64,000 nucleotides of DNA from Shigella phage Ag3. Each line of letters opens with the position of its first letter. Within the stretch, counting starts at the first letter, position 1. Below the pieces are notes generated by a model that saw only the letters and a list, made by a program, of their open reading frames with translations, was not told the origin of the DNA and made no database searches. The position numbers were made by a program, and so were the translations under genes. The stretch lies in sequence record FJ373894. The stretch is one strand, 5' to 3'. This document shows, in pieces, positions 5,130-48,235 of the stretch.

Positions 5130-5130
5130 A

Positions 5131-5163
5131 GAAAATACCCCCATGGATGATGGGGGTATTTAG
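5131..5163 (-). promoter_or_regulatory. CTAAATACCCCC motif within an inverted repeat upstream of 4401..5129
   Basis: Arms AAATACCCCC / GGGGGTATTT around ATGGATGAT loop. Confidence 0.4.
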
Positions 5164-10885: not shown

Positions 10886-11554
10886 TCAGCCCAGATGTCT
10901 CAATGCGATATCGAGGCGGCGCAGGAAGTCGTCTTCGAACTGAATATTGGTTTTCACCAATGAATCGACCACTTGCCCTTTGATGTCTTTAGGAACCCAA
11001 ATTCCTGAAGATTCATCAAGCTGCCATTCAACAGATTCGCTCACAGCCTTTACATAACAAACTTGTCCAGAAGGACGGTCGACTGCATCAACAGCAGTGA
11101 GCATAAAGCCAGGTTGAACGTCGTCATAACCGTTCACCGACTTGGTCTCACCAAGGCCACGTGTAGACACGGCCAAGTTGAAGTCTGCTTCAGCCAGAGC
11201 ACGAATGATCTGGCCTTTTGGTGTATTTAGCACACGCGCTCGACCGATTGCGTTTGTACCCTCCCAACGGAGGCTCTCGGTCTTCAGCGCAGCTTCAGCA
11301 ATATCTGGGAAAGGGTAGTCGGGATGTTTGAGTTCACCGATTGCGCGACGATCCTGAACATACTCTTTGTCATATGCTTCGACAGCTGGTATGCCCACTT
11401 TCTGGAGATCGTAGTTGCGTCCATTACGGTTCACCTGATTACACATCACGAATGGACCTTCGATGAACATAGCCTTACCCCCGGTGGAGGTCGTGCTTTC
11501 ACCAATTTGGAGGTCTTTCCCTATCGCCGTGATCTCACGCAACAGTTTCATCAT
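10886..11554 (-). CDS. prohead core protease (T4 gp21-like)
   Basis: GELKHP...GRARVL...STRGLGE matches T4 gp21 GELNHP...GRARVI...SSRGLGS. Confidence 0.85.
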   Translation of the reverse strand: MMKLLREITAIGKDLQIGESTTSTGGKAMFIEGPFVMCNQVNRNGRNYDLQKVGIPAVEAYDKEYVQDRRAIGELKHPDYPFPDIAEAALKTESLRWEGTNAIGRARVLNTPKGQIIRALAEADFNLAVSTRGLGETKSVNGYDDVQPGFMLTAVDAVDRPSGQVCYVKAVSESVEWQLDESSGIWVPKDIKGQVVDSLVKTNIQFEDDFLRRLDIALRHLG

Positions 11555-22306: not shown

Positions 22307-25300
22307 TTATGCCAGAGCAATCAAACGGAAATCTTTGAATGATGGCGGCGCTGTACGGTTGCCTCTCACCAGCAGGCGGATCTTCAGGCCAACGAAAGGA
22401 TTGGTGCTGTCCACAGTCTTGTCATATTCGTATTCAAAGAATGTAGAACCGTCATTGACCAGAGGGGATGTTGGAGTCACAGTTTCCCATGCCACGTCAT
22501 CCATCTCCTGACCAGCGCGGAGCAGTTTCACCTGTACAGTCATTGAAGACTGAGAAGGTAGCATCGCACCGAAGTACTGTTTCAGAGTGGTGCAAGGGTT
22601 ATCGAATCCGATATCCTTGGTCACATAACTGAACACGTCTTCAAACGGATCCACCCCGTAGGTGTTGAAGATGATAGTGAAATCATCTCCATCAATCATC
22701 GGAGCCGTGTACACGTTGCTTTCGTTACGCGTCATTGTCGCCCGCACCTGGAAGTCACCCACTTGGCGATAGATGCCTTCCGTCGACAGAGACACGTCCG
22801 TATCGGATTCGAACTCAGCCCAATCAGAGAATGAGTTGGAGGTCGCATCGCGGTAACGGTATTCCAGTTTCAACACAGAACCTTCCAGGGCTGAATTGGT
22901 GACGCTTGCGTAGAACATGTCTACCAAGTAGTTGCCCAGGAAAGAAGCCTCTTCACCACCAATCTGCCCGTCGGAGTCGGCGTTGGAACTCAGAACAAAT
23001 TTGAACGTCGTGAACGTCGCGTCTGTCACAGTGTGTTGGGCGTTCAGTTGCTCAGGAGTGAAACCACAACCACCCGTCAGACCAGACAGGGTAACACTTT
23101 CACCCGCAGTCAGGCCATGCCCCGGCGCGTACACTGTAACAGTTGAAGAACCGTTGACACATTTCACGGTGTTCAGACCCAGAGGGCGGATCTTCGGACC
23201 GACTTTAGCATCGAAGGTCACGATGTTTGAACCAGCGGAGAAGTTACAGCGATACACACGGAACTTCATATCGGCAGTCTGGTTTGGAGTCCAAGTCGTG
23301 CCGTTGGAAGACGTGAAGAACACACCAGTGTACGGCTGCTTGGCGATGTACTCGTTGGTCAGCAAGTTCTTTTTGCCCATCTCTGCGATGTATGCGTTGT
23401 AGTCCTGAGTGTTGGCCAGGAGCACGATCGCGAACTCAGTCTGCGCCTGCAGATACACAGGATAATCAAACTTGAACATCGTTGGTACAGAAGAGTCTGT
23501 GGAGACGGAAACTTCTGATGGGTTCAAAGTCTTACGAGTGACCACAGTCGTCGCAGGCAGGCCATTACTCATCTCACGGATTTCCAGAGTAATCGGGATA
23601 TCACGGGACTTGGTGGAGAAGAAGACTTCAATCCCTTCGATGTACTCGCCACCAATATTGGTAGCAACCATGAAGGATTGAGCAATCGGGTCTTTCCACT
23701 TCGCAACTTCAACCGTCTCCGTTTTGTTTTCGGTGGACTTGGTCGCAGTGTAACCCAGGACGCGAGTGTTGACATAGGTCTTCTGAATGCCCTGTTTCTT
23801 ACCGAAGGATTTGTGAACCGCTTCAGCATTGGTCAGGGTATCGTCAGCAGACTTGCTGTCCACAGGACTATCAGTCAGACGGAAGACGTTGTCGCCCGTG
23901 TTGAACTTAACAGTCTCGTTCTGAGGAACTGCGAACACGCCTTTGATGTTGCCGTTGGCGTCAGTATTCAACGCACCACCCAGGGAGCCGCCGTTGGGTG
24001 TACAGTACGCGCTAACATCGCGTCCAGAGAAGAACGGATACACGCGAGTAAACGGACGCAGGCCTGTGGCTTCGAAGTTGATGTTCGTTTTGCGCATGTA
24101 TGGGATAACCTGCGTTTCAACGATCTGCTCGCCAGTCAGGGTAGTGGTCGTCTTGTCGGTGTACGTGTACGTGGTGACGTCACGGGTAGACACAGTCGTG
24201 CGGTAGCGGTAGCCCCACCATACACCGCCTGCGCCATGCGGTTCCCACACACGCTCAGACACGGAAACAGTACGCCATGTGCCATACACAGAACCTTCTT
24301 TGATCGCGCCGCGTGTGTTGATCGTTTCGTTGATCACACGTGGAGCAACATAGTAGTTCTCGAACCAGTAGTCGGTGGTCGGGTTCAGCTTCAGGAAACC
24401 TTCCCAGTTGAATACCGCATATGGGTTCACGTTGATGGTCGTGGTCGCATAATCCTGGCGCACAGAGATCTCACGGGTGTAGTTGCATACAACCATGCCA
24501 TCCTGAACGTTGTTCCAGCCCACTGGCGTCAGGTCAACCGCATTCTGCTGAACGAACGGGCGTAGGCGACCATTGTCAGTGTCGATTGAACCTACCCAGT
24601 CAGCAGACAAATCGTCGATCAGACGGAAGTCTTTGAACGGGTCGGCAGCGATACCGTTTTTGAAGCGCGGGTTGCCAGTGATCGGGTCGAACACCTGCTG
24701 AGTCATAGCTGAAGATTCCAGCTGTGACAGTGAGGTGTAGTATTCAACATTGGAGATACGGGTCTCCAGTTTACCGATATCACGCATCGTGTAACGACGG
24801 TTGTCGATGGTACGAATCTGAATATCGTCGATGTTGGCCGTGTAAGGCGGGATCATCAATTCGTACAGACGCATGCCGTTGTCTGGGATCGCAGGCGAAG
24901 CCAGGTTGTTGGAACTCACACCACGCGCAACGTTAAACACGCCGTTGTCGGCCAGATACACAGCATCAATACGAGGCAGATAGTACTCCGCATCGAGGAC
25001 GATAGCAGTGTTCGGGCGAACCATATCAGTGTCGGAAGCACCGCTGGTGATCTTAGGACGGAAGTCCAGGCAGTCTGCCAGGCCATACACAGTACCAGAA
25101 CTGGACGAAACATAGTTCGGAATGTCTGGGTAATCGATGGAAGAATAGGAATCCGCTGTGAAGAAATCACCAGAGCTGTGAGCGAAATACTGATACACCA
25201 CCGTGAACGTCCCTGAAATGGCTCCAGTGCCCGATAACAGGTTAGAACGATAGTATGCAGCATCACGCTGGCCGCCGTCCAGAGTGAAGTTAGAGGTGAC

Positions 25301-27145
25301 GTCAGCGCCACTTGCATTCTTCACGCTGACCAGCTTGTAGCCGTCGTGGTTGTTCAGCTGTACGCTGGCCGCCGAAGTGAACGTCACAGTCTCGGTGACT
25401 TCGGTAACAGTCTTGGTCTTGATCGTCGCTGTGGTGCGGACCATCAGTGCCAACAGGTTGATAGACTGGTTGGCGTACCCCGCACCCAGGGAAATCTGCA
25501 GTGCTGAACCGACCGGAGTACCAGTCAGGGACAGTCCCGAAGAGATATCAAACTGAGCTGCAGTGCCGTCTGCCTTCGCCGCTGAGTACAAAGAGAATTC
25601 AGGGCTGAAGCTGTAACCCAGAGGAGCAGAGATAGAGCCTGCGCCTGCCGCGTTCAACGTGATCTTGTTTGACCGCAGGACGGTGTAGTTGATGTCGATG
25701 GTCCCCGTAGGAGCCAGCGTCTTCACACCAAATACAGGCAGAGGGAAGATCAGGTCAATTGCTGAACTCTGGCTGAACTGATTAGACTCCAGTTCGCAAG
25801 AGAACATTGTTGTACCGCTTTCTTCGTATGCAACTTTGGTGACAGTACCCATGTCCCCAGTGACAACGAGGTCGCGCATATACAGACGGAATTCCGCTCC
25901 AGAACGTTCTGCTGAAATCAGGAGGGCAGTGGCCTGGACAGCGCTGGATGCGTTCAGGAACTTGTAACGGATTGTGCGAGAGACAACCGGAACCCCTTTG
26001 GAGTTCTTGGACACCAGATAGTTGCCAGTCGCAACAGCCACAGGGTTGTTGTTCAGGGTATCGGTGTCACGGGCTTTATCAATAGTGACCAGCTCTTCGC
26101 CGAGGTTTTCGATACGACGGCCACGAACGTAGGAGATCCCTGGCTTCATGACCGCCACGAATTTGCTTGCGTCACCACCTTCGGCCGGAGTGTACACGCC
26201 GCCGTTGTTGTTCTCTTTCAGATGTTCACGCAGGTCGATCTGGTGAGTAGAGACGTTGTAATCCCCGTTGGTCTCATAAGTGCGCTGCGCCATACTGTCT
26301 TCGAGGATGTTGTAGGTGGACTGGGTCACCATGGACTGAATGCGCCCGTCTTTGACTTTCGCCAGTTCAACGAAGTCGGCCACTTCTTCATCATAACCGT
26401 AGCGAGACAACACGAGGTCGATGCGCAGGCGATGCGCACCAGGGGCTTTGGAGTTCGGAGTACCCTGAGCATTGGAGAACAGACTTTCGTCTTCGGTTTC
26501 GGTGACGATGGTCTCTGTCACTTTGAATCCAACGCGGTGTGAGGTGGAGTTGGATGCGTTGTCGACGATCAGGGTAGCAGCCTCAACATCCAGGAACATG
26601 CCGCGGACGAAGTAAACGCCTTTGGTCATGCGCGCAACAATAGAGCCACCGACAGTAGCAGCCACACCATAGCCGACACGAATGAAATTATCGTTCACGT
26701 CGTAGGTGTTGAAGTACAGGTTGTCACCAGCTTCGAAACCGTCTGAACTACCACTCTCAGTCATCTCTAAGATGGCGTACATTGTATCCGGCTCAGCCAG
26801 GTAACGTTCCAGAGACAGGACGCGCGCTTTCGCATTGTTGTCCTTACCCAGAACATAGAGTTCGGAGATACCTTCCAGATCGGTGAACTCGCTACCACCA
26901 GCCAGAGTGAACTTCATGGACACTGCGGTGTTGGTGATTGTCAGGCCGCCGGGGATAACCATCGAACCGTCTTTGAACAGATGGTTCCCGAGTTTCTCCA
27001 GCTGATCCTGGAAGATGGTCTGCATCTGGTTCAGTTCACGCGTCTGAACTTTGATAGGAGCCGGACGGAACAGGATGCGTGAAAAACGCTTCTCTGGATT
27101 CCAATCATCCCAGTATGGGCGGCGGTTGAGGTTCATTTCTTGCAT
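22307..27145 (-). CDS. large virion structural protein (about 1612 aa)
   Basis: ORF track 22307..27283; ATG at 27145 with GGAG RBS; T/S/G/N-rich beta-type composition. Confidence 0.7.
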   Translation of the reverse strand: MQEMNLNRRPYWDDWNPEKRFSRILFRPAPIKVQTRELNQMQTIFQDQLEKLGNHLFKDGSMVIPGGLTITNTAVSMKFTLAGGSEFTDLEGISELYVLGKDNNAKARVLSLERYLAEPDTMYAILEMTESGSSDGFEAGDNLYFNTYDVNDNFIRVGYGVAATVGGSIVARMTKGVYFVRGMFLDVEAATLIVDNASNSTSHRVGFKVTETIVTETEDESLFSNAQGTPNSKAPGAHRLRIDLVLSRYGYDEEVADFVELAKVKDGRIQSMVTQSTYNILEDSMAQRTYETNGDYNVSTHQIDLREHLKENNNGGVYTPAEGGDASKFVAVMKPGISYVRGRRIENLGEELVTIDKARDTDTLNNNPVAVATGNYLVSKNSKGVPVVSRTIRYKFLNASSAVQATALLISAERSGAEFRLYMRDLVVTGDMGTVTKVAYEESGTTMFSCELESNQFSQSSAIDLIFPLPVFGVKTLAPTGTIDINYTVLRSNKITLNAAGAGSISAPLGYSFSPEFSLYSAAKADGTAAQFDISSGLSLTGTPVGSALQISLGAGYANQSINLLALMVRTTATIKTKTVTEVTETVTFTSAASVQLNNHDGYKLVSVKNASGADVTSNFTLDGGQRDAAYYRSNLLSGTGAISGTFTVVYQYFAHSSGDFFTADSYSSIDYPDIPNYVSSSSGTVYGLADCLDFRPKITSGASDTDMVRPNTAIVLDAEYYLPRIDAVYLADNGVFNVARGVSSNNLASPAIPDNGMRLYELMIPPYTANIDDIQIRTIDNRRYTMRDIGKLETRISNVEYYTSLSQLESSAMTQQVFDPITGNPRFKNGIAADPFKDFRLIDDLSADWVGSIDTDNGRLRPFVQQNAVDLTPVGWNNVQDGMVVCNYTREISVRQDYATTTINVNPYAVFNWEGFLKLNPTTDYWFENYYVAPRVINETINTRGAIKEGSVYGTWRTVSVSERVWEPHGAGGVWWGYRYRTTVSTRDVTTYTYTDKTTTTLTGEQIVETQVIPYMRKTNINFEATGLRPFTRVYPFFSGRDVSAYCTPNGGSLGGALNTDANGNIKGVFAVPQNETVKFNTGDNVFRLTDSPVDSKSADDTLTNAEAVHKSFGKKQGIQKTYVNTRVLGYTATKSTENKTETVEVAKWKDPIAQSFMVATNIGGEYIEGIEVFFSTKSRDIPITLEIREMSNGLPATTVVTRKTLNPSEVSVSTDSSVPTMFKFDYPVYLQAQTEFAIVLLANTQDYNAYIAEMGKKNLLTNEYIAKQPYTGVFFTSSNGTTWTPNQTADMKFRVYRCNFSAGSNIVTFDAKVGPKIRPLGLNTVKCVNGSSTVTVYAPGHGLTAGESVTLSGLTGGCGFTPEQLNAQHTVTDATFTTFKFVLSSNADSDGQIGGEEASFLGNYLVDMFYASVTNSALEGSVLKLEYRYRDATSNSFSDWAEFESDTDVSLSTEGIYRQVGDFQVRATMTRNESNVYTAPMIDGDDFTIIFNTYGVDPFEDVFSYVTKDIGFDNPCTTLKQYFGAMLPSQSSMTVQVKLLRAGQEMDDVAWETVTPTSPLVNDGSTFFEYEYDKTVDSTNPFVGLKIRLLVRGNRTAPPSFKDFRLIALA

Positions 27146-27175
27146 TTTGATGCTCCATCGATAGGTGCCATTATA

Positions 27176-27191
27176 GAGATATTTAGTATAC
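27176..27191 (-). promoter_or_regulatory. late-promoter-like ACTAAATATCTC upstream of giant structural gene
   Basis: About 35 nt upstream of ATG 27145. Confidence 0.3.
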
Positions 27192-27203
27192 AGCCAACCG
27201 AGG

Positions 27204-27236
27204 AATAGAAAGAAAAAGCCCCTCATCTGAGGGGCT
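27204..27236 (-). terminator. rho-independent terminator after tailspike A
   Basis: Minus-strand AGCCCCTCAGATGAGGGGCT followed by TTTTTCTTTC. Confidence 0.65.
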
Positions 27237-27243
27237 TTGTCTA

Positions 27244-29028
27244 TCAAGCGGAAGCATTCCATTGACCAGCATTGATCACCCATGTGCTCGTTACTTTTGA
27301 ATACACCATTTTCACGAGATTCATTTTCGTGGTGGCGGTGTTGGCACCAGTCACATCGACAGGGACACCCGCTATGCTCAATGAAGCAATGTTTGAACCT
27401 CTCAGTAAAAACGTCAGCTCCATACCATCATATGGCGTACCGGTAAATGCGATGTTGGAACCAGAAGAAACGTTTCTTCGATAGCACCCATAACCGCTGT
27501 TTATGTCGACAGAGTCAGTTGTGAGCTGTAATGGCAATTTTCCACGACTTAATTTACATGCCGTTACAACGCCGAGATCATCAATGCCTCGACTTGCGCC
27601 CCAACGTGCGATGTTGACTATGTGGCCAGTCACACCAGCGTCTTGCGCACCACCAATGTCGAAGAAACCTCCAGCCCTTGTTCCCCATATCGGCTCATCA
27701 ATTAAGCTGTTGGTGGAGTTGGTTATACTATACCCATGCGCGAGGGTTCCTTGGCTTGGGGAAGAGTGTGTACAATCTCGGAATGTGGCATCTTGAGAAC
27801 CACTGATGCGGACATCAGAGATACTATTGTTCTCATAATACATTCCATACACCTTAGTTCCCTTGGCCTGATCCAAGAATCCATATTTCGTGGTATTCTG
27901 GCTGAATCCGTTAACAAAACAGACTGCTTCTGTAGGGAATGTTGTGGTATAATCCCAAGAAGTCCCGCCGTCGGTGGAGTGTCTTACGATAATACCATAA
28001 TCCGGCATATCCACTTCCGGAGCACCAGAATAACCATCAAACCCTGTTATAACGATAGCATTGGCTCCGTTCTGTACTATTAACCGACTCGAACCAGCCC
28101 CACCACCGATAACCTCACAACCGTCTATCTTCAATCCATAACACAAAGTCCCTATCTCTATCCCGATATTATTAATGGCTGTGCCCATGTCCACCCACAT
28201 CATATCTAGATGACCATGGTTCCTCCAATATTTGGCTCTGAAAGCGACGCAACCCGTTTTACCATTCAACGATATCCTGATATTGTGTAATTTGCAGTTT
28301 CTCACTGCATTCCCACCAGAACGAGAAGGATCAATCGTGAGTACACCAACGTTGTTTTCACCAGCCAAGAATAATGCGCCGGAATGTGCATAAATTTCAG
28401 AGTTAGGATAAAACGCCAACGCCTGGCCAGTTACCGTATAGTTGCCAGGAAGAAACTGGAATGTCCCACCCTGGGATAATTTAGTTTGTATAAGAGACTG
28501 AGACATCGAAGGGTCGATAACAGTTAGACGATAAAACCCAGAGTATAACTCATCTCTTAATGCATCTGGATCCAATTTCACCCAGTTAGAACTTGACAAT
28601 CCACCAGTATTGGCAATGGTGCCACCAGCGTTTACAGATTTGGGTAAAGTCCCACCCCAACGGTAAAGACTTGTACCATCAGAAACGACTTCATTTCTTA
28701 CACGTATCGTGAACCCCGAATCGAAGTTTTCGACCAAAGTTACAAATTCCTTCCGAAGTACTGCAAGAACCCCCAGGTCTACGGTGCCCGTATTGTGTAC
28801 GAGAATGCCGTCTGCCATGCTGGTGATGGTAGCGCCAGCAGGCAGGTTAGAAGGCAGAGCATAGGAGCGCTGGGGCACCTTGTCGTAGATCACCTTATAA
28901 CCAGTCAGGGTGGATCCTGGTTTAGCATACAGAACCTCGGACTTCTTGCACCCGAACTTGCGTGCAATAGAGTCCTTGTTGGTCTCTTTCGAGACCGTAC
29001 CTTTCGGCTGTGAAAATTGCGGATTCAT
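27244..29028 (-). CDS. tailspike protein A (594 aa)
   Basis: N-terminus MNPQFSQPKG shared with 31692..33713; Gly/Asn/Thr-rich beta-helix-like repeats. Confidence 0.7.
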   Translation of the reverse strand: MNPQFSQPKGTVSKETNKDSIARKFGCKKSEVLYAKPGSTLTGYKVIYDKVPQRSYALPSNLPAGATITSMADGILVHNTGTVDLGVLAVLRKEFVTLVENFDSGFTIRVRNEVVSDGTSLYRWGGTLPKSVNAGGTIANTGGLSSSNWVKLDPDALRDELYSGFYRLTVIDPSMSQSLIQTKLSQGGTFQFLPGNYTVTGQALAFYPNSEIYAHSGALFLAGENNVGVLTIDPSRSGGNAVRNCKLHNIRISLNGKTGCVAFRAKYWRNHGHLDMMWVDMGTAINNIGIEIGTLCYGLKIDGCEVIGGGAGSSRLIVQNGANAIVITGFDGYSGAPEVDMPDYGIIVRHSTDGGTSWDYTTTFPTEAVCFVNGFSQNTTKYGFLDQAKGTKVYGMYYENNSISDVRISGSQDATFRDCTHSSPSQGTLAHGYSITNSTNSLIDEPIWGTRAGGFFDIGGAQDAGVTGHIVNIARWGASRGIDDLGVVTACKLSRGKLPLQLTTDSVDINSGYGCYRRNVSSGSNIAFTGTPYDGMELTFLLRGSNIASLSIAGVPVDVTGANTATTKMNLVKMVYSKVTSTWVINAGQWNASA

Positions 29029-29198
29029 AAGAATCTCCTGTTGTTTATTCTCGATGGTATGCGCAACGGCTTATTTAGTTGTCGGCGAGTCCAGGTATGC
29101 CGCCACCGAATATGTTGCTGGTGAACGCGCAACTGGATTGGCTTATCGAACAGACTGGAACAAAGCGCGTTATCAGGTCTGACATGGACGAATGCGAC

Positions 29199-29223
29199 TG
29201 AAGAAAAGGTCCCTTTCGGGACC
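29199..29223 (-). terminator. rho-independent terminator after tailspike B
   Basis: Minus-strand GGTCCCGAAAGGGACC followed by TTTTCTTC. Confidence 0.65.
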
Positions 29224-29229
29224 TTGACT

Positions 29230-31506
29230 TTAGTTCTGAATCAACACGGCATTGTACGATAGTGGAAAATCACCAGAAGTTCCTGAACGGGTAAACTGGT
29301 AGTTAGACCCAGAAACACCAGCAGCGACAGACGCCAACTGACTCGCTGAAGTGGCTGTCACCGCAATGCTACGGCCAGATACCAGGCTAACTATACCGAC
29401 AGCGGCAGTAACGGACCCAACGCCATTCGGGATAGTAACTAACCCGACTTGCTTGTCCGGGTGTGTCGGGGAGTCATAATGGTAGAACTTACACGAAGCT
29501 CCACCCACAAAAACCTGCCCGTAAAAGTAACAATTTTTTGTTGTTACGCTAGAGCCACCAGTTTGGTTATCTAAAACAGTAATTCCCAGTGGCTTATTTG
29601 CCAGGAATGTACAATTTTCCGCAGTTACTCCAACTACAGAGTTCACTAAAAGGTCTCCCTGCTGTGCTGCATCAATGTCATTGTTCTGGAAAAGGCAATT
29701 CACAAGCTTTGGTCTTGCCGGTACTAGGCCACCTTCTTTAATAATCTCAAGACCAAAGTAACGGCTGTCAGAGAATTTAACACCTGTAGCCATAAACTCA
29801 TTACAAGAACCCTGAATTACCACACAAGATTTATTACCGCTGCGGTTGCTGCTGTAATACCCGTTTGTTAATTGTAAATACTGAGTATTAGTCGCTCTCA
29901 GTGCAATACCGGTGGCAAGGTCTGACATGACGTCAGTCAGCCATATCCACCGGCAGTTAACTATCTCTATAGCTGCGGTGCCTAAAGTGTTATCACCACA
30001 GGCGTAGAATCTATCGCCTAGCAGCTCAATACCCTCTATGTTCGTGCTCACATGAGAGCTGTTTTCGGTTATGAACAGCCCGCATTTACACCCATTGAAT
30101 GTATTCTGGTTAAATCGAGTGTTAATCTGTCCCCCACCAAGTACAACACCGTATGTACTGGCAGCGAATCTGTTGAACCTGAAATCAAGCTCTCCAGCCC
30201 CATAACCGCCGGGTGCATCTACGCAATATTTAAGGAAGGCAAAAGAACAATTTTCAACTGTAACCAAAGGCGCTTCGATTCGTATACCAGTTGATGTGGA
30301 TTCTACGGTAACTGACTGAATCGTAAAGTCCGCAAGTCTTGCAAATTCATGAGTAACCTTGAAACATGTATCTCCGTCATTTTCAGGGCAGAATGTCGTG
30401 TTGAGCTTGCCCGCTCCGATAAGATTGGCGGGGCTATCAATAACAATATCTTTTACGAAATATTTCTCCGTTGCCGCCGGGACAAATACTGTATTAGACG
30501 CTGTAGAGGCGAGCTTAGCTGCGGCCAATGCGGCATTGATGGCCTGTGACCATGTATTAGACCCAGTTTTATAGTCGGCGGCATTGAAATAGACGGCATG
30601 GCGGGCGTTAATTATAGCCTGCTCTACAGTAACACCAGAAGAAGTCCCGACTAACGTAGCCCCGGAGCTTGCCGCTAAATCGTTTCTTAAATTTGGGTCC
30701 GTTTGTGGAGTCCAGTCGGCAACAGCAACAGGGTTGGTACTTGCTGCGATTACATGCGGCAATGCACCACTCCAGGAATACCAGGTCTTACTTACCGGGT
30801 CATATACCACTTTGTCACGGTCATTAATTGTTAAAGTGCCGCCTACGCTAAAAGTTAAACCAGAGTCAGCGTAGCCATTTTCAATAGCCCAGTTGAGTTT
30901 TAACTTGATCAAATCATCACCAACAGAGTCTAAACTCTGTTGCACCGTTTGCCCCGACGTAGTTCCAACAAGGCTTGCCCCATTATCAGAAGCCAACGCC
31001 AGGTAATTTTGTTTTACGGACATTTCTGACACGACCCAAACTCCAGCCGCAGGCGAACCTGTGAGGAAACTCACAACTCCTGTTGTGCTGTTGTAGCTGT
31101 AGTTGACACCAGGAACCTGGAACTTCCCGTCAACATACAGAGACTGTACGCCGTAGGTTGTGAAGTCTGGCGTGAAAGTAGTCTCGTTACCGTCCGCCTG
31201 AAACTTGTAGATTCTGATCCCGTTTTCATAATCTTCTGGGGACAGGATCTTGTCAAACAGACAGTACACTACATCATCAGCCTCTAGTGCTCGACCGAGG
31301 TTGACTGTGTTGCCATCGATTTCATAGTTGTCGACAGGAACCTGAACACCACCATTGATAGTGATGAAGCCCGTAACGGGATAGAACGGGAGGGAGATAA
31401 ACGTCTCTCCACCCGTTGCGGTATAAGTGTATGGAATCTGGTGTGGTGCTGTTACAACCGCTCCAAAGATGCTCTCGACGTTTCTGGTCATTTGAAGATA
31501 CCCCAT
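29230..31506 (-). CDS. tailspike protein B (758 aa)
   Basis: Beta-helix-like repeats (NCSFAF, NCTFLANK); alternative start 31491. Confidence 0.65.
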   Translation of the reverse strand: MGYLQMTRNVESIFGAVVTAPHQIPYTYTATGGETFISLPFYPVTGFITINGGVQVPVDNYEIDGNTVNLGRALEADDVVYCLFDKILSPEDYENGIRIYKFQADGNETTFTPDFTTYGVQSLYVDGKFQVPGVNYSYNSTTGVVSFLTGSPAAGVWVVSEMSVKQNYLALASDNGASLVGTTSGQTVQQSLDSVGDDLIKLKLNWAIENGYADSGLTFSVGGTLTINDRDKVVYDPVSKTWYSWSGALPHVIAASTNPVAVADWTPQTDPNLRNDLAASSGATLVGTSSGVTVEQAIINARHAVYFNAADYKTGSNTWSQAINAALAAAKLASTASNTVFVPAATEKYFVKDIVIDSPANLIGAGKLNTTFCPENDGDTCFKVTHEFARLADFTIQSVTVESTSTGIRIEAPLVTVENCSFAFLKYCVDAPGGYGAGELDFRFNRFAASTYGVVLGGGQINTRFNQNTFNGCKCGLFITENSSHVSTNIEGIELLGDRFYACGDNTLGTAAIEIVNCRWIWLTDVMSDLATGIALRATNTQYLQLTNGYYSSNRSGNKSCVVIQGSCNEFMATGVKFSDSRYFGLEIIKEGGLVPARPKLVNCLFQNNDIDAAQQGDLLVNSVVGVTAENCTFLANKPLGITVLDNQTGGSSVTTKNCYFYGQVFVGGASCKFYHYDSPTHPDKQVGLVTIPNGVGSVTAAVGIVSLVSGRSIAVTATSASQLASVAAGVSGSNYQFTRSGTSGDFPLSYNAVLIQN

Positions 31507-31519
31507 AGAGGATTTGCCA

Positions 31520-31534
31520 ATATGGGGTATTTAG
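31520..31534 (-). promoter_or_regulatory. late-promoter-like CTAAATACCCCATAT upstream of tailspike B
   Basis: Identical 15-mer to 1967..1981. Confidence 0.4.
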
Positions 31535-31691
31535 CGAATGGATAAGAAGTCGCAGGACTACCCACTTGTTTTATCTGATTACGAATTTACCCAGGCTGAT
31601 ATCGTTAATCAGCGTAGCCACTATGTTTGCCAGTTGGGTGGTTGTTAACGTGTTCACATCACCACGCAATTGCTGGCTACAACAATGATTG

Positions 31692-33713
31692 TTAGCTTAG
31701 ATTTAGACTAAACCCACCATTTGACTTGCTTATCATACCACGAACAGTTTTGTTGCCTCCACCGCTGTATTCGTCATATTGCATTTTGACATTTACAGCG
31801 ATGTTGGCGTCAATTGAATCCCATCCAGCAAAGTTCAGGAACACATTTCCGCTAGTGTCTACTGATATTGTTGGCGTGGCTGCTGTTCCTTTTGTGAACG
31901 TACTTTGCACTGAACCTTCCATTGTGCTTGCTGCTGGAGTTGTACCCATCACTAATGTTCCCTGCAATCGCCCATGCCATGCGCTAGAAACACCTGAAAC
32001 CGGGGAGTTGGCTACAACATCAACCGTCCACAAACTTACGTTTCGGTACGTACTCACAGTGCCAATTTTAAAATTCCTGGAATCTCCAGCGGCTTTAATG
32101 AACAGCATTGAACCCGTAGCGCATTTACTTGAATCAGGCGCTGCACCTGCAGATGCAAAATCAGAGAATGTGCAATTATCAAATTTTACTTTGCTGTAAT
32201 CGGTAGCTGTTAACTTAGCTTCTGGTGCATTAACATTTTCGAATTTAACTCCGCCATAGTTCGCCACTGCGCCTGTAAGCTGATTGGTATTGACATATAC
32301 ATCACCACCATTCAGCTTTCGGACCACCAGGTCACGACAGATAAATCCATTAATAGAATCGCCTGACGTCCAGTTATCGTTGGTGTTGAAGTTAAAGAAC
32401 CATGCATGGTTACCAGAGTCTCCGCCGCCAAGTTCTATGCGTCCGGTGATCACAATATTTGAATAACCATAGCCACGCGGGTTATTATCTGCTACAGACT
32501 CGTCAATCAGCTTTGTTGTGCCAATAACACTTCCCCAATTCCCCCCGACGACATCATAATTGATGGTTATGTTACGCATCAGCCCGGCAATCATCGTCTC
32601 TGTTATGGTGCTGTCCCAACCCCAATCCAGCCATATTGGTGCTACGCGGTACGGAAGCGTGTAACGCCCTGTGCTACGATATTTGTAATTGACTGTAAGA
32701 TTAGATATTTGATTATCCATGTTACCGTTATAGAAATACATTTTGATTGGCGTACCCTGTTGAGTATCAATGGCATCAACAGTTATCTGGCCACCACCAC
32801 AATTGTTCGTCAGAAAGAAATCACGACGGCAACCATTATTAACTGTATGGATGTCAACTACACCAACATTACCAAGGAGATGTGGATAGCGAGTGTCATT
32901 GTTCACACTGCGAGCAAAGAGATTTTTTACATTAGTACATTCGTAGCCTTGATAGCACTTGTTAGTCTTGCCAATAAATGTGAAATTATTGCATCCATTC
33001 AGGCGCAGTGGGGTTAGTCCGCGTTTGTCATCACCGACATACTCAAGGGTGGAAGAAGCATCCACTTCAAACACCAGATTGGTGATATTCGTCAGGTCGA
33101 ACACGCGCGTCAGGTCAAATGCACCGGAGTAAAGCAGGGTGTCCCTGATAACCAGTCCGCGAATTTCAAGGCAGTCCATATTACTTAAAGTAAAGATGGT
33201 ACTAAGACCGCCACTACCAGGACCAAAGTTCACAACCTGGTCAAAAATAATTTCAACACTTTTTAGGTTGTTAGATGTGATGTAAGACTGCAAAGATTGC
33301 AGTGTACCGAATCGGGAGAAGTAAAGGACACGTTTGTTTACAACTGAATCAAGAGCATCTTTTACTGTAGATGATTCGTATCCGACAAGACTTGCCTTTT
33401 CACCCGTCAGCAGTTCAGAACCCAGCGTTTTGCTTTCAACGCTAACCCATGCTGAAGATGATACACCACCAGTTGATTGTGGTGTTGAGTTTTTGTTCAC
33501 AGTTTTGGGCAAAGACCCACCCCAGGTATAACACTGGGCACCATTGATATGCCACACGGCGTCGGTTGCAGTCGTCACAGTAGCACCGTCTTCAAAACTA
33601 CCTTCGACCAAATTAAGACCTAAATCCGACAAAGCCCGCCGCCACAATTCACGCGGGTTTTTGTTGATTTCTTTGGCTGTTGAACCTTTCGGCTGATTGA
33701 ATTGCGGATTCAT
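31692..33713 (-). CDS. tailspike protein C (673 aa)
   Basis: N-terminal module shared with 27244..29028 (MNPQFNQPKG, WGGSLPK, TGGVSSS); beta-helix-like repeats. Confidence 0.7.
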   Translation of the reverse strand: MNPQFNQPKGSTAKEINKNPRELWRRALSDLGLNLVEGSFEDGATVTTATDAVWHINGAQCYTWGGSLPKTVNKNSTPQSTGGVSSSAWVSVESKTLGSELLTGEKASLVGYESSTVKDALDSVVNKRVLYFSRFGTLQSLQSYITSNNLKSVEIIFDQVVNFGPGSGGLSTIFTLSNMDCLEIRGLVIRDTLLYSGAFDLTRVFDLTNITNLVFEVDASSTLEYVGDDKRGLTPLRLNGCNNFTFIGKTNKCYQGYECTNVKNLFARSVNNDTRYPHLLGNVGVVDIHTVNNGCRRDFFLTNNCGGGQITVDAIDTQQGTPIKMYFYNGNMDNQISNLTVNYKYRSTGRYTLPYRVAPIWLDWGWDSTITETMIAGLMRNITINYDVVGGNWGSVIGTTKLIDESVADNNPRGYGYSNIVITGRIELGGGDSGNHAWFFNFNTNDNWTSGDSINGFICRDLVVRKLNGGDVYVNTNQLTGAVANYGGVKFENVNAPEAKLTATDYSKVKFDNCTFSDFASAGAAPDSSKCATGSMLFIKAAGDSRNFKIGTVSTYRNVSLWTVDVVANSPVSGVSSAWHGRLQGTLVMGTTPAASTMEGSVQSTFTKGTAATPTISVDTSGNVFLNFAGWDSIDANIAVNVKMQYDEYSGGGNKTVRGMISKSNGGFSLNLS

Positions 33714-33759
33714 GTGAATCTCCTGTTGTTCTCATGAAGCCCCGAAGGGGCTTTATCAA

Positions 33760-36700
33760 TTAGAAGTTGCGAGACATCTCGAACCATATACCAGCTCGGC
33801 GCTGGAGAGTCATGATAGCCAAGCCACCGGAAGCCGTGGCGTTCACCCCACCTTTGAGGCGCATCACAGTACTATTGTGAGTGAGGACAACCCCATCACC
33901 CATACGCAGGTTGATAATATCACCCGATTGTGCACCAGTGAAGTCGGTGATGGTTCCTGAAGCGATATACAGATTCGGACCAAACACCGCAGATGGGGTG
34001 CCACCCGACACCGTCACTTCACCTTTCGGATCATCAAGAGCAGTGACGTCTCTTATCACGTTGAAAGCGCCGCGCCCACGGCTAAGATAATACTTGCTGG
34101 TAGTAGCCCCGCGAGCAGCAATGTTGGTCAGGGAACCATCAGTCATCAGGGTTCCGGCGTCGTATGCATAAACAACATGCGGACGAGACGTGACCGAGTT
34201 AATGACTTCGTCATGGATGTTGACGTTGTACATTGCTTTGTTATTGGTGGCGGCCAGATAGATAGCGCAAGATCCCGCTCCATACGCGTTACCGCCGATA
34301 TTGATGTTGCCTGTGTCGCCAGCGATAGGAGTGGTGTTCGGGTTACGGGAACTACTGTAGATCGCCAGAGGATAGTCTGCGGTCAACACCCAATCAGATT
34401 CCACGGCGATGCTCGCCAAGGAACCAGCAAACAAGCCGTTGGCATTGACAGACACGTTGGTGACGCCAGCGCCCATGTAAACGCTGTATTTCCAGTCGCC
34501 GAGGATTGTATTCCCACTGACGGTACATTGGTCAACGCCCTTGTAAAGCTGGATCGCTGCGTCATCTGATGGAGATACAGCCGCTGTCGAAGTCTGGATA
34601 TGGTTACCAGAGATATTGATCCAACGACACCCCCAAGCGACGTTGACGCCAGAACTACCACCATCAATCAGAAGGTTGCCAACGACATTTACTCGCTGGC
34701 AGTTTGGACTGAGGTTGATGTTTCGGTGGGTGTTCCCTATGATGTGGTTCTTCGTAATCAGTGTGCGGAACAGACCCAGCCCCTGAACACCATGGGTGCC
34801 CCCAGAAATGAAGTTTCCTTCAATGATGGTATCGCGCAACGTGATCGTAGACGGGAACAACGGAACCCCAGCATTGGTGTCTAGGCCACCATACAGAGAT
34901 GTGATCTGCCCGATCATCCCGATGCCACAAATCGCATAGTTGCCTGTGCCCGCCCAAGGATCGGTTGGCATCTCAATGACGTTTTCGCTGATTTTGTTGT
35001 TGATGTTCATGGAAGTCGTGCTGGTCGTACCGATACGGATACCGTATGCCTCGCCAGTCCCATCCAGACCATAAACATAGTTCTTTTCAATAGTCGCACG
35101 GATAACGCCGGAAACGATGATACCCTTCCTGGTGTTGTTGTTGCCATTTAGGATACAGTTTCTGATTTGTAAATCGGTGTGCCCAGTATCAACAAAGGAG
35201 TAGAGCAGTGTGTCTGTGTTGGCAACGATACACTTCAGCTTCAGACCATCGATAACTTTGACACCAACTGTCACCAGAACACGGCCTACACCATAAACCT
35301 TTTCTGTACCGCGGACGATAACTCCTGGATGGCTCGCGGCATAATCAACAGCACCCTGAACAGCCAGAGTGAAATCTGTGTTTTCATCGACGTACTCACC
35401 AGCCGTAACCAGATGAGAGAATTGCTCTGGCGTGACATAGTATTGCATTTCGGCCAAAGTGCCCTGGGGTGTTACAACGACAGCGTTTGCACCCACCAGA
35501 CCTGTATTCCCGGCCAGCAACTCGCCTTTGTACGCTTCAAGGGCGTCTTTACTGCCAGGGGCTGGTAAGAGTGGCACCACAACGTTGCCAGGAGCGTAGG
35601 ACAAGTTGCTTCCGCTCACAGATACGATGGACGCGCCTGTTGGGATACCAGAAGGCAGACCCCAGATCTTCTGTGCAACGACATCATAGATAACCGTCTT
35701 TCCGTCCAGTTTGGTGATGGTATCGGACGACAAAATAACCTGAGAATTCGGTACGTTCACGGAACGTGCCACTTCGTTTGGTGTACGGTCGATCTGATTG
35801 TACAGGGTTGGGTCACCATTGATGACGACAACAACTTCATCACCAGCTTCGAGTTCGTCGGCCAGCGTGATGATCTTCGTAACGGAGTCATAAGTGAAGC
35901 CCAGGCCTTTCTGCTGGCGGGATCCATCGATAAAGATCTCAGAAACATCTTCGGCATCGACATCCAACTCGATCTCAGTTTCACCACCCACAGCTGATCC
36001 GCTATTGTATATCCAAGTGATAACCGTACCGCCGCCGGAACCACCGGAGCCATCGCCCAACTGGATCGGGACATATTGGATGACCTGCAGCTCGGAACCT
36101 GATGGGATTGATGGACTGAAGTCGACATTGAAACCATTGAGGGAATACTTTGACTCCAGCAGGCGCTTCCCGTCAACATACACATCAACAATGGACGGCT
36201 GTGTGGTGAGAGTTACCTGAGCTGTATCTGATGCAACTGTCTCAGTGAAGATGGTACGACTGTAAACGCGCCCCTGGCCAAGACCGACGCCAGCAGTCAC
36301 AATCCAACCACGCGCGTCTCCAGACCAGGTAAAGGTCGCAGACACGCTATCGGTGGAGAGAGTCATAGGCTCTACAGAGCCGTACATTGGGTGACCATTT
36401 GGGTCAATGGTCAGAGGATACAGGGAGAACTTTCCATACAAGTCACAGACTGTAACAGAATCGCCAATGCGCGTAGGGGAAGGGAACACCACCGTAGAGA
36501 CGCCTGTGGAGTTGTCTACCAGATAGCCTCGCCCTTCAGTGAGCGTTGCCGTAGAGGCATGCGGAAGGGCTTCCCAGCGGATACCACCGCCACCCAGCGG
36601 CAACCATCCACCATTTTCGTAGAAGCCCTCAAATTCGTCGGAGTCGGCATTGTAGCGAACAGAAGACGGGAGGCCTGCGCTGGCATTACCCTCGGGTAAA

Positions 36701-36819
36701 GTCAGGACAGCATCTGGTCCATGCTCAATCGTACCCGTGTTGAGGATACCAGCCAAAGTAGACTGTTCTTCAGCCACCAGACCGAGAGGGAAAACAGGCT
36801 GTGTTGGTTTATTAGCCAT
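33760..36819 (-). CDS. tailspike protein D (about 1019 aa, TSP4-like)
   Basis: ORF track 33760..36849; ATG at 36819 with GGGG RBS; long N-terminal domain plus C-terminal repeats. Confidence 0.7.
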   Translation of the reverse strand: MANKPTQPVFPLGLVAEEQSTLAGILNTGTIEHGPDAVLTLPEGNASAGLPSSVRYNADSDEFEGFYENGGWLPLGGGGIRWEALPHASTATLTEGRGYLVDNSTGVSTVVFPSPTRIGDSVTVCDLYGKFSLYPLTIDPNGHPMYGSVEPMTLSTDSVSATFTWSGDARGWIVTAGVGLGQGRVYSRTIFTETVASDTAQVTLTTQPSIVDVYVDGKRLLESKYSLNGFNVDFSPSIPSGSELQVIQYVPIQLGDGSGGSGGGTVITWIYNSGSAVGGETEIELDVDAEDVSEIFIDGSRQQKGLGFTYDSVTKIITLADELEAGDEVVVVINGDPTLYNQIDRTPNEVARSVNVPNSQVILSSDTITKLDGKTVIYDVVAQKIWGLPSGIPTGASIVSVSGSNLSYAPGNVVVPLLPAPGSKDALEAYKGELLAGNTGLVGANAVVVTPQGTLAEMQYYVTPEQFSHLVTAGEYVDENTDFTLAVQGAVDYAASHPGVIVRGTEKVYGVGRVLVTVGVKVIDGLKLKCIVANTDTLLYSFVDTGHTDLQIRNCILNGNNNTRKGIIVSGVIRATIEKNYVYGLDGTGEAYGIRIGTTSTTSMNINNKISENVIEMPTDPWAGTGNYAICGIGMIGQITSLYGGLDTNAGVPLFPSTITLRDTIIEGNFISGGTHGVQGLGLFRTLITKNHIIGNTHRNINLSPNCQRVNVVGNLLIDGGSSGVNVAWGCRWINISGNHIQTSTAAVSPSDDAAIQLYKGVDQCTVSGNTILGDWKYSVYMGAGVTNVSVNANGLFAGSLASIAVESDWVLTADYPLAIYSSSRNPNTTPIAGDTGNINIGGNAYGAGSCAIYLAATNNKAMYNVNIHDEVINSVTSRPHVVYAYDAGTLMTDGSLTNIAARGATTSKYYLSRGRGAFNVIRDVTALDDPKGEVTVSGGTPSAVFGPNLYIASGTITDFTGAQSGDIINLRMGDGVVLTHNSTVMRLKGGVNATASGGLAIMTLQRRAGIWFEMSRNF

Positions 36820-36822
36820 TTC

Positions 36823-36863
36823 AAATACCCCTAAATGTGTTCGTTTCATCTAGGGGTATTTAG
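36823..36863 (-). promoter_or_regulatory. CTAAATACCCCTAG motif plus inverted repeat upstream of tailspike D
   Basis: Arms AAATACCCCTA / TAGGGGTATTT; downstream arm supplies GGGG RBS. Confidence 0.4.
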
Positions 36864-48135: not shown

Positions 48136-48149
48136 CTAAATACCCCATA
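48136..48149 (+). promoter_or_regulatory. late-promoter-like CTAAATACCCCATA (copy 1)
   Basis: Followed by GGGGTATCTATG. Confidence 0.35.
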
Positions 48150-48235
48150 CAACCCGTGTGGGGTATCTATGAAACCTTTCTTGAATATTTCCGTGATATC
48201 GTCCTGTGCAAACCCGGCCTGGCAGTGCGGGAAGC

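What the first reader, a model, noticed from the sequence alone, without database searches (positions are those of the whole stretch)
27244..36819. Four tandem tailspike genes with shuffled N-terminal modules
Four consecutive large genes (594, 758, 673 and about 1019 aa) carry Gly/Asn/Thr-rich beta-helix-like repeats. Spikes A and C share an N-terminal module (MNPQF(S/N)QPKG, WGG(T/S)LPK, TGG(L/V)SSS) and a near-identical upstream region (ATTGCGGATTCAT..GAATCTCCTGTTGTT at about 28995-29045 and 33695-33735) but have divergent C-termini. This indicates cassette exchange of receptor-binding domains and a branched multi-spike adsorption apparatus.
Basis: partly seen in the sequence, partly recalled or inferred. 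Interest (0 to 1): 0.55.

Follow-up and report, generated by a model that had tools for sequence, protein, structure and literature searches.

The report
Known four-tailspike cluster of phage Ag3
These four genes are the tailspike cluster of Shigella phage Ag3, a well-studied kind of branched multi-spike host-recognition device whose sugar-binding ends are swapped between phages, so the finding is correct but already known.

Summary
Four consecutive minus-strand genes of 594, 753, 673 and 1019 aa lie at 27244-36819. All four are exact matches to gp175-gp178 of Shigella phage Ag3 (phiSboM-AG3), the type Agtrevirus of the Ackermannviridae.

They are TSP1-TSP4 of the branched tailspike complex described for phage CBA120. 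TSP4 carries the baseplate anchor plus XD1-3 hub domains. TSP2 carries the matching N-terminal hub region. TSP1 and TSP3 carry small head domains. All four end in right-handed beta-helix receptor-binding domains (RBDs).

Cassette exchange is directly supported:
- Each RBD has a different set of relatives. TSP1 matches MK-13 and ChubbyThor, TSP3 matches Gloob, and TSP4 matches P46FS4, SKML-39 and Dickeya RC-2014. TSP2 matches only a Koutsourovirus podophage, at 70%.
- The TSP3 RBD also occurs on T7-like, SU10-like and P22-like phages.
- Two intergenic relics mark past replacements.

The shared "upstream region" is the ribosome-binding site plus the first 14 coding bases (29 of 31 identical).

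One correction: TSP3 shares only the first 19 aa and the D2 domain with TSP1, and lacks D1.

All of this was published for Ackermannviridae, including Ag3 (Sorensen 2021 and 2023; Plattner 2019; Chao 2022). Verdict: supported, already known, low interest.

The parts
27244..29028 (-). TSP1 (Ag3 gp175, 594 aa). N-terminal 19 aa, then D1 (about 20-92), D2 (94-151, Pfam Tail_spike_N), a neck helix (154-164) and a beta-helix RBD (168-594).
   Evidence: The RBD is 99.8% identical to MK-13 and 99.1% to ChubbyThor.
27215..27238 (-). Terminator-like hairpin just after the TSP1 stop codon, in the true TSP1-VriC intergenic region.
   Evidence: The VriC start at 27145 is supported.
29015..29045 (-). 31-mer (RBS AACAACAGGAGATTC plus ATGAATCCGCAATT) at the TSP1 start, shared 29/31 with the TSP3 start.
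29124..29201 (+). Relic of the 3' end of a siphovirus gene. It reads NAQLDWLIEQTGTKRVIRSDMDECD*, the C-terminus of FSL SP-038 gp45, a gene that lies convergently downstream of the tailspike gene in Guernseyvirinae.
   Evidence: Window 29120-29235 is 82% identical to the FSL SP-038 3' flank and 87% to Yersinia phage CAU_YEP3.
29206..29225 (.). GC-rich hairpin (AAGGTCCC-GAAA-GGGACCTT, then a T-rich run) after the TSP2 stop codon. Terminator-like on both strands.
29230..31491 (-). TSP2 (Ag3 gp176, 753 aa from M6). N-terminal hub region (residues 6-183 in first-ATG numbering), one TD domain (213-259) and a beta-helix RBD.
   Evidence: The RBD's best match is 69.7% to Salmonella phage KKP 3828 (Koutsourovirus).
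31524..31534 (-). Viunalikevirus motif CTAAATACCCC upstream of TSP2. It is the 5' arm of a hairpin that pairs with GGGGTAT just before the start codon.
31571..31672 (-). Relic of a displaced TSP3 gene. It reads QLRGDVNTLTTTQLANIVATLINDISLGKFVIR*, the C-terminal 33 residues of the G7C gp63.1-like TSP3 of MK-13 and fGh-Ecl02. It is out of frame with the present TSP3.
31692..33713 (-). TSP3 (Ag3 gp177, 673 aa). N-terminal 19 aa, a helix (20-30), D2 only (37-92), a neck and a beta-helix RBD (from about 100).
   Evidence: The RBD is 99.7% identical to Gloob gp167.
33700..33730 (-). 31-mer at the TSP3 start, shared with TSP1.
33737..33753 (-). Short GC hairpin (AAGCCCC-TTCG-GGGGCTT) between TSP4 and TSP3. 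It has no T-run.
   Evidence: read from the sequence.
33760..36819 (-). TSP4 (Ag3 gp178, 1019 aa from M11). Anchor plus XD1-XD2-XD3 (residues 11-348 in first-ATG numbering), D1 (358-428), no D2 detected, then a beta-helix RBD.
   Evidence: The RBD is 100% identical to P46FS4, 97.7% to SKML-39 and 96.5% to Dickeya RC-2014.
36822..36863 (-). CTAAATACCCC motif (36853-36863) and the 16-bp hairpin it forms with the sequence just upstream of the TSP4 start codon.
   Evidence: -21 kcal/mol, z -6.9.

Best explanation
The window is part of the genome of Shigella phage Ag3 (Agtrevirus, Ackermannviridae), and the four genes are its tsp1-tsp4 cluster.

By homology to the CBA120 system, TSP4 trimers attach to the baseplate through their N-terminal anchor domain. 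They present T4-gp10-like XD domains as docking hubs. TSP2 docks on TSP4 through its own XD2, TSP1 docks on TSP4 XD3 through its D1-D2 head, and TSP3 docks on the TSP2:TSP4 complex. The virion then carries four different trimeric beta-helix spikes. Each binds, and probably cleaves or deacetylates, a different O-antigen or capsule, which widens the host range.

The conserved 5' parts of the genes (hub and head modules) serve two roles. They are the structural adaptor, and they provide the upstream homology arm for recombination. The 3' receptor-binding parts are replaced as cassettes taken from other Ackermannviridae and from unrelated podo- and siphoviruses and prophages.

Shown here: gene identity, domain homology, beta-helix folds (two by Pfam, two by prediction), the mosaic pattern, cross-family sharing of RBDs, and two relics of displaced or imported sequence. 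Inferred: physical assembly, enzymatic activity and receptor identities.
For: Identity.
- All four proteins are exact matches to Ag3 gp175-gp178.
- The flanking backbone is 96-97% identical to Agtrevirus genomes.

Architecture.
- D 11-348 matches PDB 7rej/7rfo, CBA120 TSP4-N (E=3e-151).
- B 6-183 matches PDB 6w4q, TSP2 residues 1-178 (E=5e-74).
- A 1-165 matches the heads of 4oj5, 6nw9 and 4qnl.
- C 36-114 matches the D2 domains of the same structures.
- A 19-88 resembles D 358-428 (D1 paralogues, E=4e-7), and B 104-147 resembles D 286-329 (E=0.002).

Folds.
- Pfam Beta_helix is found in B and D.
- AlphaFold2 plus Foldseek assign tailspike beta-helices to A and C.

Mosaicism.
- Breakpoints lie at 29046-57, 30937, 33460-81, 33714 and 35575, which are the module junctions.
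- Each RBD has different relatives.
- The C RBD occurs at 82-88% identity on a T7-like phage, an SU10-portal phage and a P22-like E. coli prophage. The A RBD family sits behind PF09008, PF03906 and PF18668 anchors.

Relics.
- The 3' end of a gp63.1-like TSP3 lies at 31571-31672.
- A siphovirus 3' flank lies at 29120-29235.

Literature.
- The branched complex and its assembly order.
- Ag3 tsp1 is like ChubbyThor and tsp4 is like P46FS4; subtype TSP4-14 is shared with Limestonevirus.
- Ag3 virions show a complex network of baseplate spikes and infect four Shigella species.
Against: - No experiment on Ag3 TSPs is available in what I read. Assembly, activity and receptors are inferred from CBA120 and AV101.
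- TSP3 lacks the D1 domain that the published model uses for docking on XD3, and TSP4 lacks a detectable D2. The Ag3 complex therefore cannot be an exact copy of the CBA120 model.
- The A and C models are monomers. Foldseek TM-scores are low (0.2-0.35) because of domain orientation, so fold assignment rests on Foldseek probability and secondary structure.
- The C alignment was shallow (at least 59% identity to the query).
Confidence: 0.92

Rival explanations
1. Duplication and divergence only. On this view the four genes are paralogues that arose by tandem duplication, and their C-termini diverged in place, without import of foreign cassettes.
For: The N-terminal modules are clearly paralogous. 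A resembles C, A D1 resembles D D1, and a stretch of the B hub region resembles one in D. The literature also proposes an origin by duplication from TSP4.
Against: - The RBDs show no significant similarity to each other apart from one marginal B-C match (E about 7e-4).
- The same RBDs are 70-100% identical to RBDs of other phages whose N-terminal anchors are unrelated, namely P22 head-binding, T7 tail-fibre N-terminus and SU10-like.
- The backbone is 96-97% identical to other Agtrevirus genomes, whereas homology in the tsp region drops abruptly at the module junctions.
- Relics of displaced and imported sequence remain.
Confidence: 0.04
2. Only some of the four are functional spikes. In particular, the D1-less TSP3 may not be incorporated into the virion, or may be a decaying gene.
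For: TSP3 lacks D1. In CBA120, binding needs the TSP3 head. TSP3 is absent from Limestonevirus, and P46FS4 TSP3 is annotated as two ORFs. The Ag3 TSP3 has no CTAAATACCCC motif of its own.
Against: - The D1-less N-module is intact and 93-98% conserved at DNA level in MK-13, P46FS4, SKML-39, fGh-Ecl02 and Gloob, in front of four or more different RBDs. That pattern indicates selection on a working adaptor.
- The ORF is full length with a strong RBS.
- The RBD is 99.7% identical to Gloob and has a confident beta-helix core.
Confidence: 0.08
3. The C-terminal domains are non-enzymatic adhesins (fibre-like binders) rather than depolymerising tailspikes.
For: No catalytic residues were identified here. 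Pfam finds only generic Beta_helix in B and D and nothing in A or C. Some beta-helix matches are adhesins, for example PfbA.
Against: - The closest structural matches are enzymatically active tailspikes: CBA120 TSP1-4, HK620, P22, Det7 and Acinetobacter depolymerases.
- All characterised Ackermannviridae TSPs produce halos or cleave O-antigen.
Confidence: 0.1

Closest known systems
Kuttervirus CBA120 TSP1-TSP4 branched receptor-binding complex (Plattner 2019; Chao 2022; PDB 4oj5, 6w4q, 5w6f/6nw9, 5w6h, 7rej)
   Same: - The four tsp genes lie in the same order between VriC and the baseplate genes.
- The TSP4 anchor-XD1-XD2-XD3 region, the TSP2 N-terminal hub region and the TSP1 D1-D2 head are homologous at E=1e-40 to 1e-151.
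- All end in beta-helix RBDs.
   Different: - All four RBDs are unrelated in sequence to the CBA120 RBDs.
- The Ag3 TSP3 head is D2 only, and the TSP4 head is D1 only. CBA120 has D1+D2 in both.
- The Ag3 TSP3 lacks its own CTAAATACCCC motif, which Kuttervirus Det7 has.
Agtrevirus tsp clusters (AV101, MK-13, Gloob, ChubbyThor, P46FS4, SKML-39; Sorensen 2021 and 2023)
   Same: Same genus and same N-terminal modules (81-98% DNA identity). Individual RBDs are shared: TSP1 with MK-13 and ChubbyThor, TSP3 with Gloob, TSP4 with P46FS4 and SKML-39. Ag3 itself was included in those analyses.
   Different: The combination of four RBDs is unique to Ag3. The TSP2 RBD has no close relative in the phage collection searched (best 69.7%, in a Koutsourovirus). 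Receptors are known for AV101 but not for Ag3.
Podovirus G7C gp63.1/gp66 two-spike system, and the Shigella phage B2 Gp48/Gp49 complex (PDB 4qnl, 9d80-9d84)
   Same: TSP1 residues 1-165 are homologous to the gp63.1 and Gp48 N-terminal heads (E=9e-43 and 7e-45). The relic at 31571-31672 is the C-terminus of a gp63.1-like spike. The logic is the same: a branching hub plus a docked second spike.
   Different: Those are podovirus tails carrying two spikes, not four on a myovirus baseplate.
Klebsiella KP32-type RBP1 branching domain / RBP2 conserved docking peptide
   Same: A secondary spike is attached to a primary spike through a short conserved N-terminal element (abstract seen). Ag3 TSP1 and TSP3 share a conserved 19-aa N-terminus that is predicted to be disordered in the monomer.
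   Different: No sequence homology was tested. In CBA120, TSP1 residues 14-166 are enough for binding, so the peptide is not required there.

Membership tests
Ackermannviridae branched TSP complex (CBA120 type) | tsp gene cluster located between vriC and the baseplate-wedge genes of an Ackermannviridae genome | tested here: met
   VriC (DUF4815, 1612 aa) lies downstream. A 403-aa structural protein and the wedge genes lie upstream. Related phages show the same layout. The backbone is 96-97% identical to Agtrevirus. The proteins are exact matches to Ag3.
Ackermannviridae branched TSP complex (CBA120 type) | TSP4 with an N-terminal baseplate anchor plus XD1, XD2 and XD3 (T4 gp10-like) domains | tested here: met
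   D 11-348 aligns to residues 1-336 of PDB 7rej/7rfo, E=3e-151. This is sequence homology; no structure was predicted here.
Ackermannviridae branched TSP complex (CBA120 type) | TSP2 with N-terminal XD2 and XD3 domains | tested here: met
   B 6-183 aligns to residues 1-178 of PDB 6w4q, E=5e-74. B 104-147 resembles D 286-329.
Ackermannviridae branched TSP complex (CBA120 type) | TSP1 with a D1-D2 (TD1-TD2) head | tested here: met
   A 1-165 aligns to the heads of 4oj5, 6nw9 and 4qnl. The AF2 model shows two small beta domains before the neck helix.
Ackermannviridae branched TSP complex (CBA120 type) | TSP3 with a D1-D2 head, with D1 docking on TSP2 XD3 | tested here: not met
   C has only the first 19 aa plus D2. 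The D1 beta-sandwich (A residues 20-82) is absent. The same holds in MK-13, Gloob, P46FS4, SKML-39 and fGh-Ecl02, whereas Det7 TSP3 has D1. This is a variation in one component and does not remove the cluster from the family.
Ackermannviridae branched TSP complex (CBA120 type) | C-terminal right-handed parallel beta-helix receptor-binding domain in each TSP | tested here: met
   Pfam PF13229 passes its cut-off in B and D. AF2 plus Foldseek support it for A and C.
Ackermannviridae branched TSP complex (CBA120 type) | Physical assembly of the four trimers into one branched complex on the baseplate | not testable with these tools
   Support is indirect only. Electron microscopy of Ag3 shows a complex network of baseplate spikes, and assembly was shown for CBA120.
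Ackermannviridae branched TSP complex (CBA120 type) | Polysaccharide-degrading activity, with each TSP specific for one O- or K-antigen | not testable with these tools
   Not shown for Ag3 in the papers read. Shown for CBA120 and AV101.

The most novel reading that the evidence does not exclude
In the Shigella/Salmonella clade of Agtrevirus, TSP3 has lost the D1 head domain but keeps the 19-residue N-terminus it shares with TSP1 (MNPQF.QPKG..., disordered in monomer models). TSP3 would then dock on the TSP2:TSP4 hub through this peptide plus D2, a mode different from the CBA120 model. This bears on the open question, stated in the 2024 review, of how TSP3 binds TSP2.
Probability: 0.3. Interest if true: 0.4.

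Novelty: already known. Interest (0 to 1): 0.15.

Why it matters
Multi-spike complexes explain how one phage infects several serotypes, and they are the main handle for engineering host range. That is established knowledge, and this cluster belongs to a phage sequenced in 2011 and re-analysed in 2021 and 2023.

This look adds small details only:
- Two sequence relics show that RBD cassettes came in with their 3' flanks, one from a siphovirus-type tailspike locus. They also show that a gp63.1-like TSP3 was overwritten.
- The Agtrevirus TSP3 adaptor lacks D1.

Tried and rejected
- I looked for the whole 9.6-kb cluster in the phage collection. No record covers more than 42%. This first suggested a new phage, but exact protein look-up showed it is Ag3, which that collection does not appear to hold.
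- I considered that the 19-aa N-terminus is the docking element, by analogy with KP32-type peptides. Chao 2022 shows that CBA120 TSP1 residues 14-166 bind TSP4-N without it, so I keep this only as a possibility for the D1-less TSP3.
- I checked whether the open frame across the B-A intergenic region is a gene. It is not in frame with TSP1 and has no homologue. The real signal is on the other strand, where the siphovirus relic lies.
- A paper search for PDB code 8x8m returned only irrelevant hits. The entry's identity (Klebsiella K64 ORF41 spike) came from Foldseek.
- Adriaenssens 2012 could not be read, so the origin of the CTAAATAcCcc motif is cited only through the EspM4VN paper.
Full report
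**Observation**

The region holds four consecutive minus-strand ORFs.

| Gene | Coordinates | Length |
|---|---|---|
| A | 27244-29028 | 594 aa |
| B | 29230-31506 | 758 aa from the first ATG |
| C | 31692-33713 | 673 aa |
| D | 33760-36849 | 1029 aa from the first ATG |

B similarly starts at M6 (31491, 753 aa).

A and C are related at the N-terminus with BLASTP E=2e-12, and both pass the Pfam Tail_spike_N threshold. The 'near-identical upstream region' is a 31-mer at 29015-29045 and 33700-33730, with 29 of 31 bases identical. It gives two matches in the window against none expected. It consists of the ribosome-binding site AACAACAGGAGATTC, two variable bases, and ATGAATCCGCAATT.

**Identity**

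Exact-sequence look-up shows that A, B (from M6), C and D (from M11) are gp175, gp176, gp177 and gp178 of Shigella phage Ag3 (phiSboM-AG3, 158,006 bp). The neighbouring 24 kb is 96-97% identical to other Agtrevirus genomes: ChubbyThor, P46FS4, Gloob, MK-13 and SKML-39. The phage collection available for DNA search does not appear to hold Ag3, which is why no record covered more than 42% of the cluster.

**Anatomy**

- D residues 11-348 match the crystallised anchor-XD1-XD2-XD3 region of CBA120 TSP4 (E=3e-151).
- B residues 6-183 match the N-terminal 178 residues of full-length CBA120 TSP2 (E=5e-74).
- A residues 1-165 match the D1-D2 heads of CBA120 TSP1 and TSP3, G7C gp63.1 and Shigella phage B2 Gp48 (E=1e-40 to 7e-45).
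- Within the cluster, A 19-88 resembles D 358-428 (D1 paralogues). B 104-147 resembles D 286-329 within the hub region, but only weakly (E=0.002).
- Pfam Beta_helix passes its cut-off in B and D.
- A and C had no Pfam hit in the C-terminal part. I built alignments of homologues and predicted structures. A has pLDDT 87 and C has 78, both with long runs of beta-coils after a neck helix.
- Foldseek against the PDB returns CBA120 TSP3/TSP1/TSP4, HK620, P22, Det7 and Acinetobacter-phage tailspikes, alginate epimerases and polygalacturonase, at probability 1.0. TM-scores are low because the monomer models place the domains arbitrarily.

**A correction on the N-terminal module**

C is not a copy of A's module. 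C shares residues 1-19 (MNPQFNQPKGSTAKEINKN) with A and then goes through a helix into the D2 domain. The D1 beta-sandwich (A residues 20-82) is missing.

The same short module precedes different RBDs in MK-13, Gloob, P46FS4, SKML-39 and fGh-Ecl02, whereas Kuttervirus Det7 TSP3 has D1 and D2. D has D1 but no detectable D2.

Head composition therefore differs from CBA120, where TSP1, TSP3 and TSP4 have D1+D2 and TSP2 has one domain. The published model lets D1 dock on XD3, and the 2024 review says that TSP3-TSP2 binding is still unclear.

**Cassette exchange**

Local BLASTN against eight related tsp loci gives a clean mosaic.

| Gene | DNA similarity to related loci |
|---|---|
| TSP1 | Whole gene matches MK-13 (96.9%) and ChubbyThor (95.1%) |
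| TSP2 | Only the 5' 570 nt is conserved |
| TSP3 | Whole gene matches Gloob (96%) |
| TSP4 | Whole gene matches P46FS4 (98.5%), SKML-39 (93%) and Dickeya phage RC-2014 (87.7%); other phages match only the 5' 1.27 kb |

The breakpoints are at 29046-57, 30937, 33460-81, 33714 and 35575. These are the start of tsp1, the hub/RBD junction of tsp2, the D2/RBD junction and the start of tsp3, and the D1/RBD junction of tsp4.

At protein level the RBD relatives are as follows.

| RBD | Closest relatives |
|---|---|
| TSP1 | 99.8% MK-13, 99.1% ChubbyThor |
| TSP2 | 69.7% Salmonella phage KKP 3828 (Koutsourovirus podophage); 50% a Kuttervirus |
| TSP3 | 99.7% Gloob only |
| TSP4 | 100% P46FS4, 97.7% SKML-39, 96.5% Limestonevirus RC-2014 |

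In the large protein collection, the TSP3 RBD recurs at 60-88% identity behind several unrelated anchors: P22-type head-binding domains, T7 tail-fibre N-termini, 948-999-aa proteins, and Enterobacter prophage proteins. Context look-ups confirm three of these settings:
- a T7-like genome;
- a roughly 70-kb phage with an SU10-type portal;
- a P22-like E. coli prophage, next to a gtrABC O-antigen modification operon.

The TSP1 RBD family shows the same variety of anchors.

**Relics**

Two intergenic stretches are molecular fossils of these exchanges.

1. Downstream of tsp3, 31571-31672 reads QLRGDVNTLTTTQLANIVATLINDISLGKFVIR*. This is the C-terminal 33 residues of the gp63.1-like TSP3 of MK-13 and fGh-Ecl02. 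It is out of frame with the present gene and is shared with Gloob. The present RBD therefore overwrote a gp63.1-like one and left its 3' end behind.
2. Downstream of tsp2, 29120-29235 is 82% identical to the 3' flank of the tailspike gene of Guernseyvirinae siphophages (FSL SP-038/031/049). On the plus strand it still encodes the last 25 residues of the convergent gene that follows the tailspike in those phages, next to a bidirectional hairpin. The same piece lies downstream of TSP4 in Yersinia phage CAU_YEP3.

**Expression signals**

- The Viunalikevirus motif CTAAATACCCC occurs six times exactly in the window against 0.44 expected. It precedes tsp4 and tsp2 but not tsp3 or tsp1.
- A variant of the motif precedes VriC.
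- In Gloob, fGh-Ecl02 and Det7, tsp3 has its own motif. In Ag3, MK-13, P46FS4 and SKML-39 the tsp3 leader is the tsp1-type RBS instead.
- Terminator-like hairpins follow tsp2 and tsp1, and a hairpin without a T-run follows tsp4.

**Comparison with what is known**

- The branched CBA120 complex and its assembly order: Plattner 2019 as cited, and Chao 2022.
- TSP subtypes and RBD swapping across 99 Ackermannviridae. These include the two-phage Agtrevirus subtype TSP1-24 and subtype TSP4-14, which is shared between Agtrevirus and Limestonevirus.
- The Agtrevirus comparison, which states that Ag3 tsp4 resembles P46FS4 and tsp1 resembles ChubbyThor, and that RBDs come from prophages and distant virulent phages.
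- Experimental tsp swapping.
- The 2011 Ag3 genome paper, which already noted three contiguous tailspike homologues, the spike network seen in EM, and a host range across four Shigella species.

**Verdict**

The feature is already known. The only additions are minor: the two relics, the D1-less TSP3 adaptor, and the promoter/RBS hairpins.

Noticed in passing
window 36822-36863, 31494-31534, 5130-5163 (all minus strand) and 48136-48170 (plus strand): CTAAATACCCC is the 5' arm of a strong hairpin. Its 3' arm (GGGGTAT..) lies 3-6 nt before the start codon of tsp4, tsp2 and two other genes. RNA MFE is -16 to -21 kcal/mol and z is -3.8 to -6.9. The arrangement is conserved in Agtrevirus, Limestonevirus, Kuttervirus Det7 and CAU_YEP3. 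It looks like the T4 arrangement, recalled from memory, in which read-through transcripts sequester the RBS and late-promoter transcripts start inside the stem. Three other motif copies lack the partner arm.
   Followed up: partly
window 33714-33759, compared with L003 9826-9857, L007 7492-7522 and L008 about 11110-11146: The tsp3 leader exists in two forms. Gloob, fGh-Ecl02 and Det7 have a CTAAATACCCC motif of their own. Ag3, MK-13, P46FS4 and SKML-39 have a hairpin plus the tsp1-type RBS and no motif. In Ag3, tsp3 would therefore depend on transcription from the tsp4 promoter.
   Followed up: partly
window 22307-27283: The first-ATG ORF of VriC (1658 aa) is over-extended. The real start is ATG 27145, giving 1612 aa and 177.2 kDa, exactly the mass reported for virion band A of Ag3. 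Homology to RC-2014 ends there, a variant motif CTAAATATCTC lies 41 nt upstream, and the tsp1 terminator (27215-27238) sits in the gap. The apparent 40-nt overlap with tsp1 is therefore not real.
   Followed up: yes
window 33760-36849 and 29230-31506: The first-ATG starts of D (M1) and B (M1) lie inside the promoter/hairpin element. The annotated and homology-supported starts are M11 (36819) and M6 (31491).
   Followed up: yes
L011 6001-10799 (E. coli GCA_052551635.1 contig): A P22-like prophage carries a tailspike whose RBD is 82% identical to the Ag3 TSP3 RBD. It lies directly next to a gtrA/gtrB/gtrC-like O-antigen glucosylation operon. This strain's serotype may hint at the TSP3 receptor.
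   Followed up: no
L015 6001-6293 (Yersinia phage CAU_YEP3) and L004 6438-6629 (Dickeya phage RC-2014): Other Ackermannviridae carry debris where tsp3 would be. CAU_YEP3 has the same siphovirus-flank relic plus a 31-aa 'tail spike protein' fragment. RC-2014 has a 63-aa ORF. P46FS4 TSP3 is annotated as two ORFs (L005 5947-7954).
   Followed up: no
window 27244-29028: TSP1 is the only RBD that Ag3 shares with MK-13, a phage reported to be specific for Shigella boydii type 1. That O-antigen is therefore the obvious candidate receptor for gp175. This is inference only.
   Followed up: no
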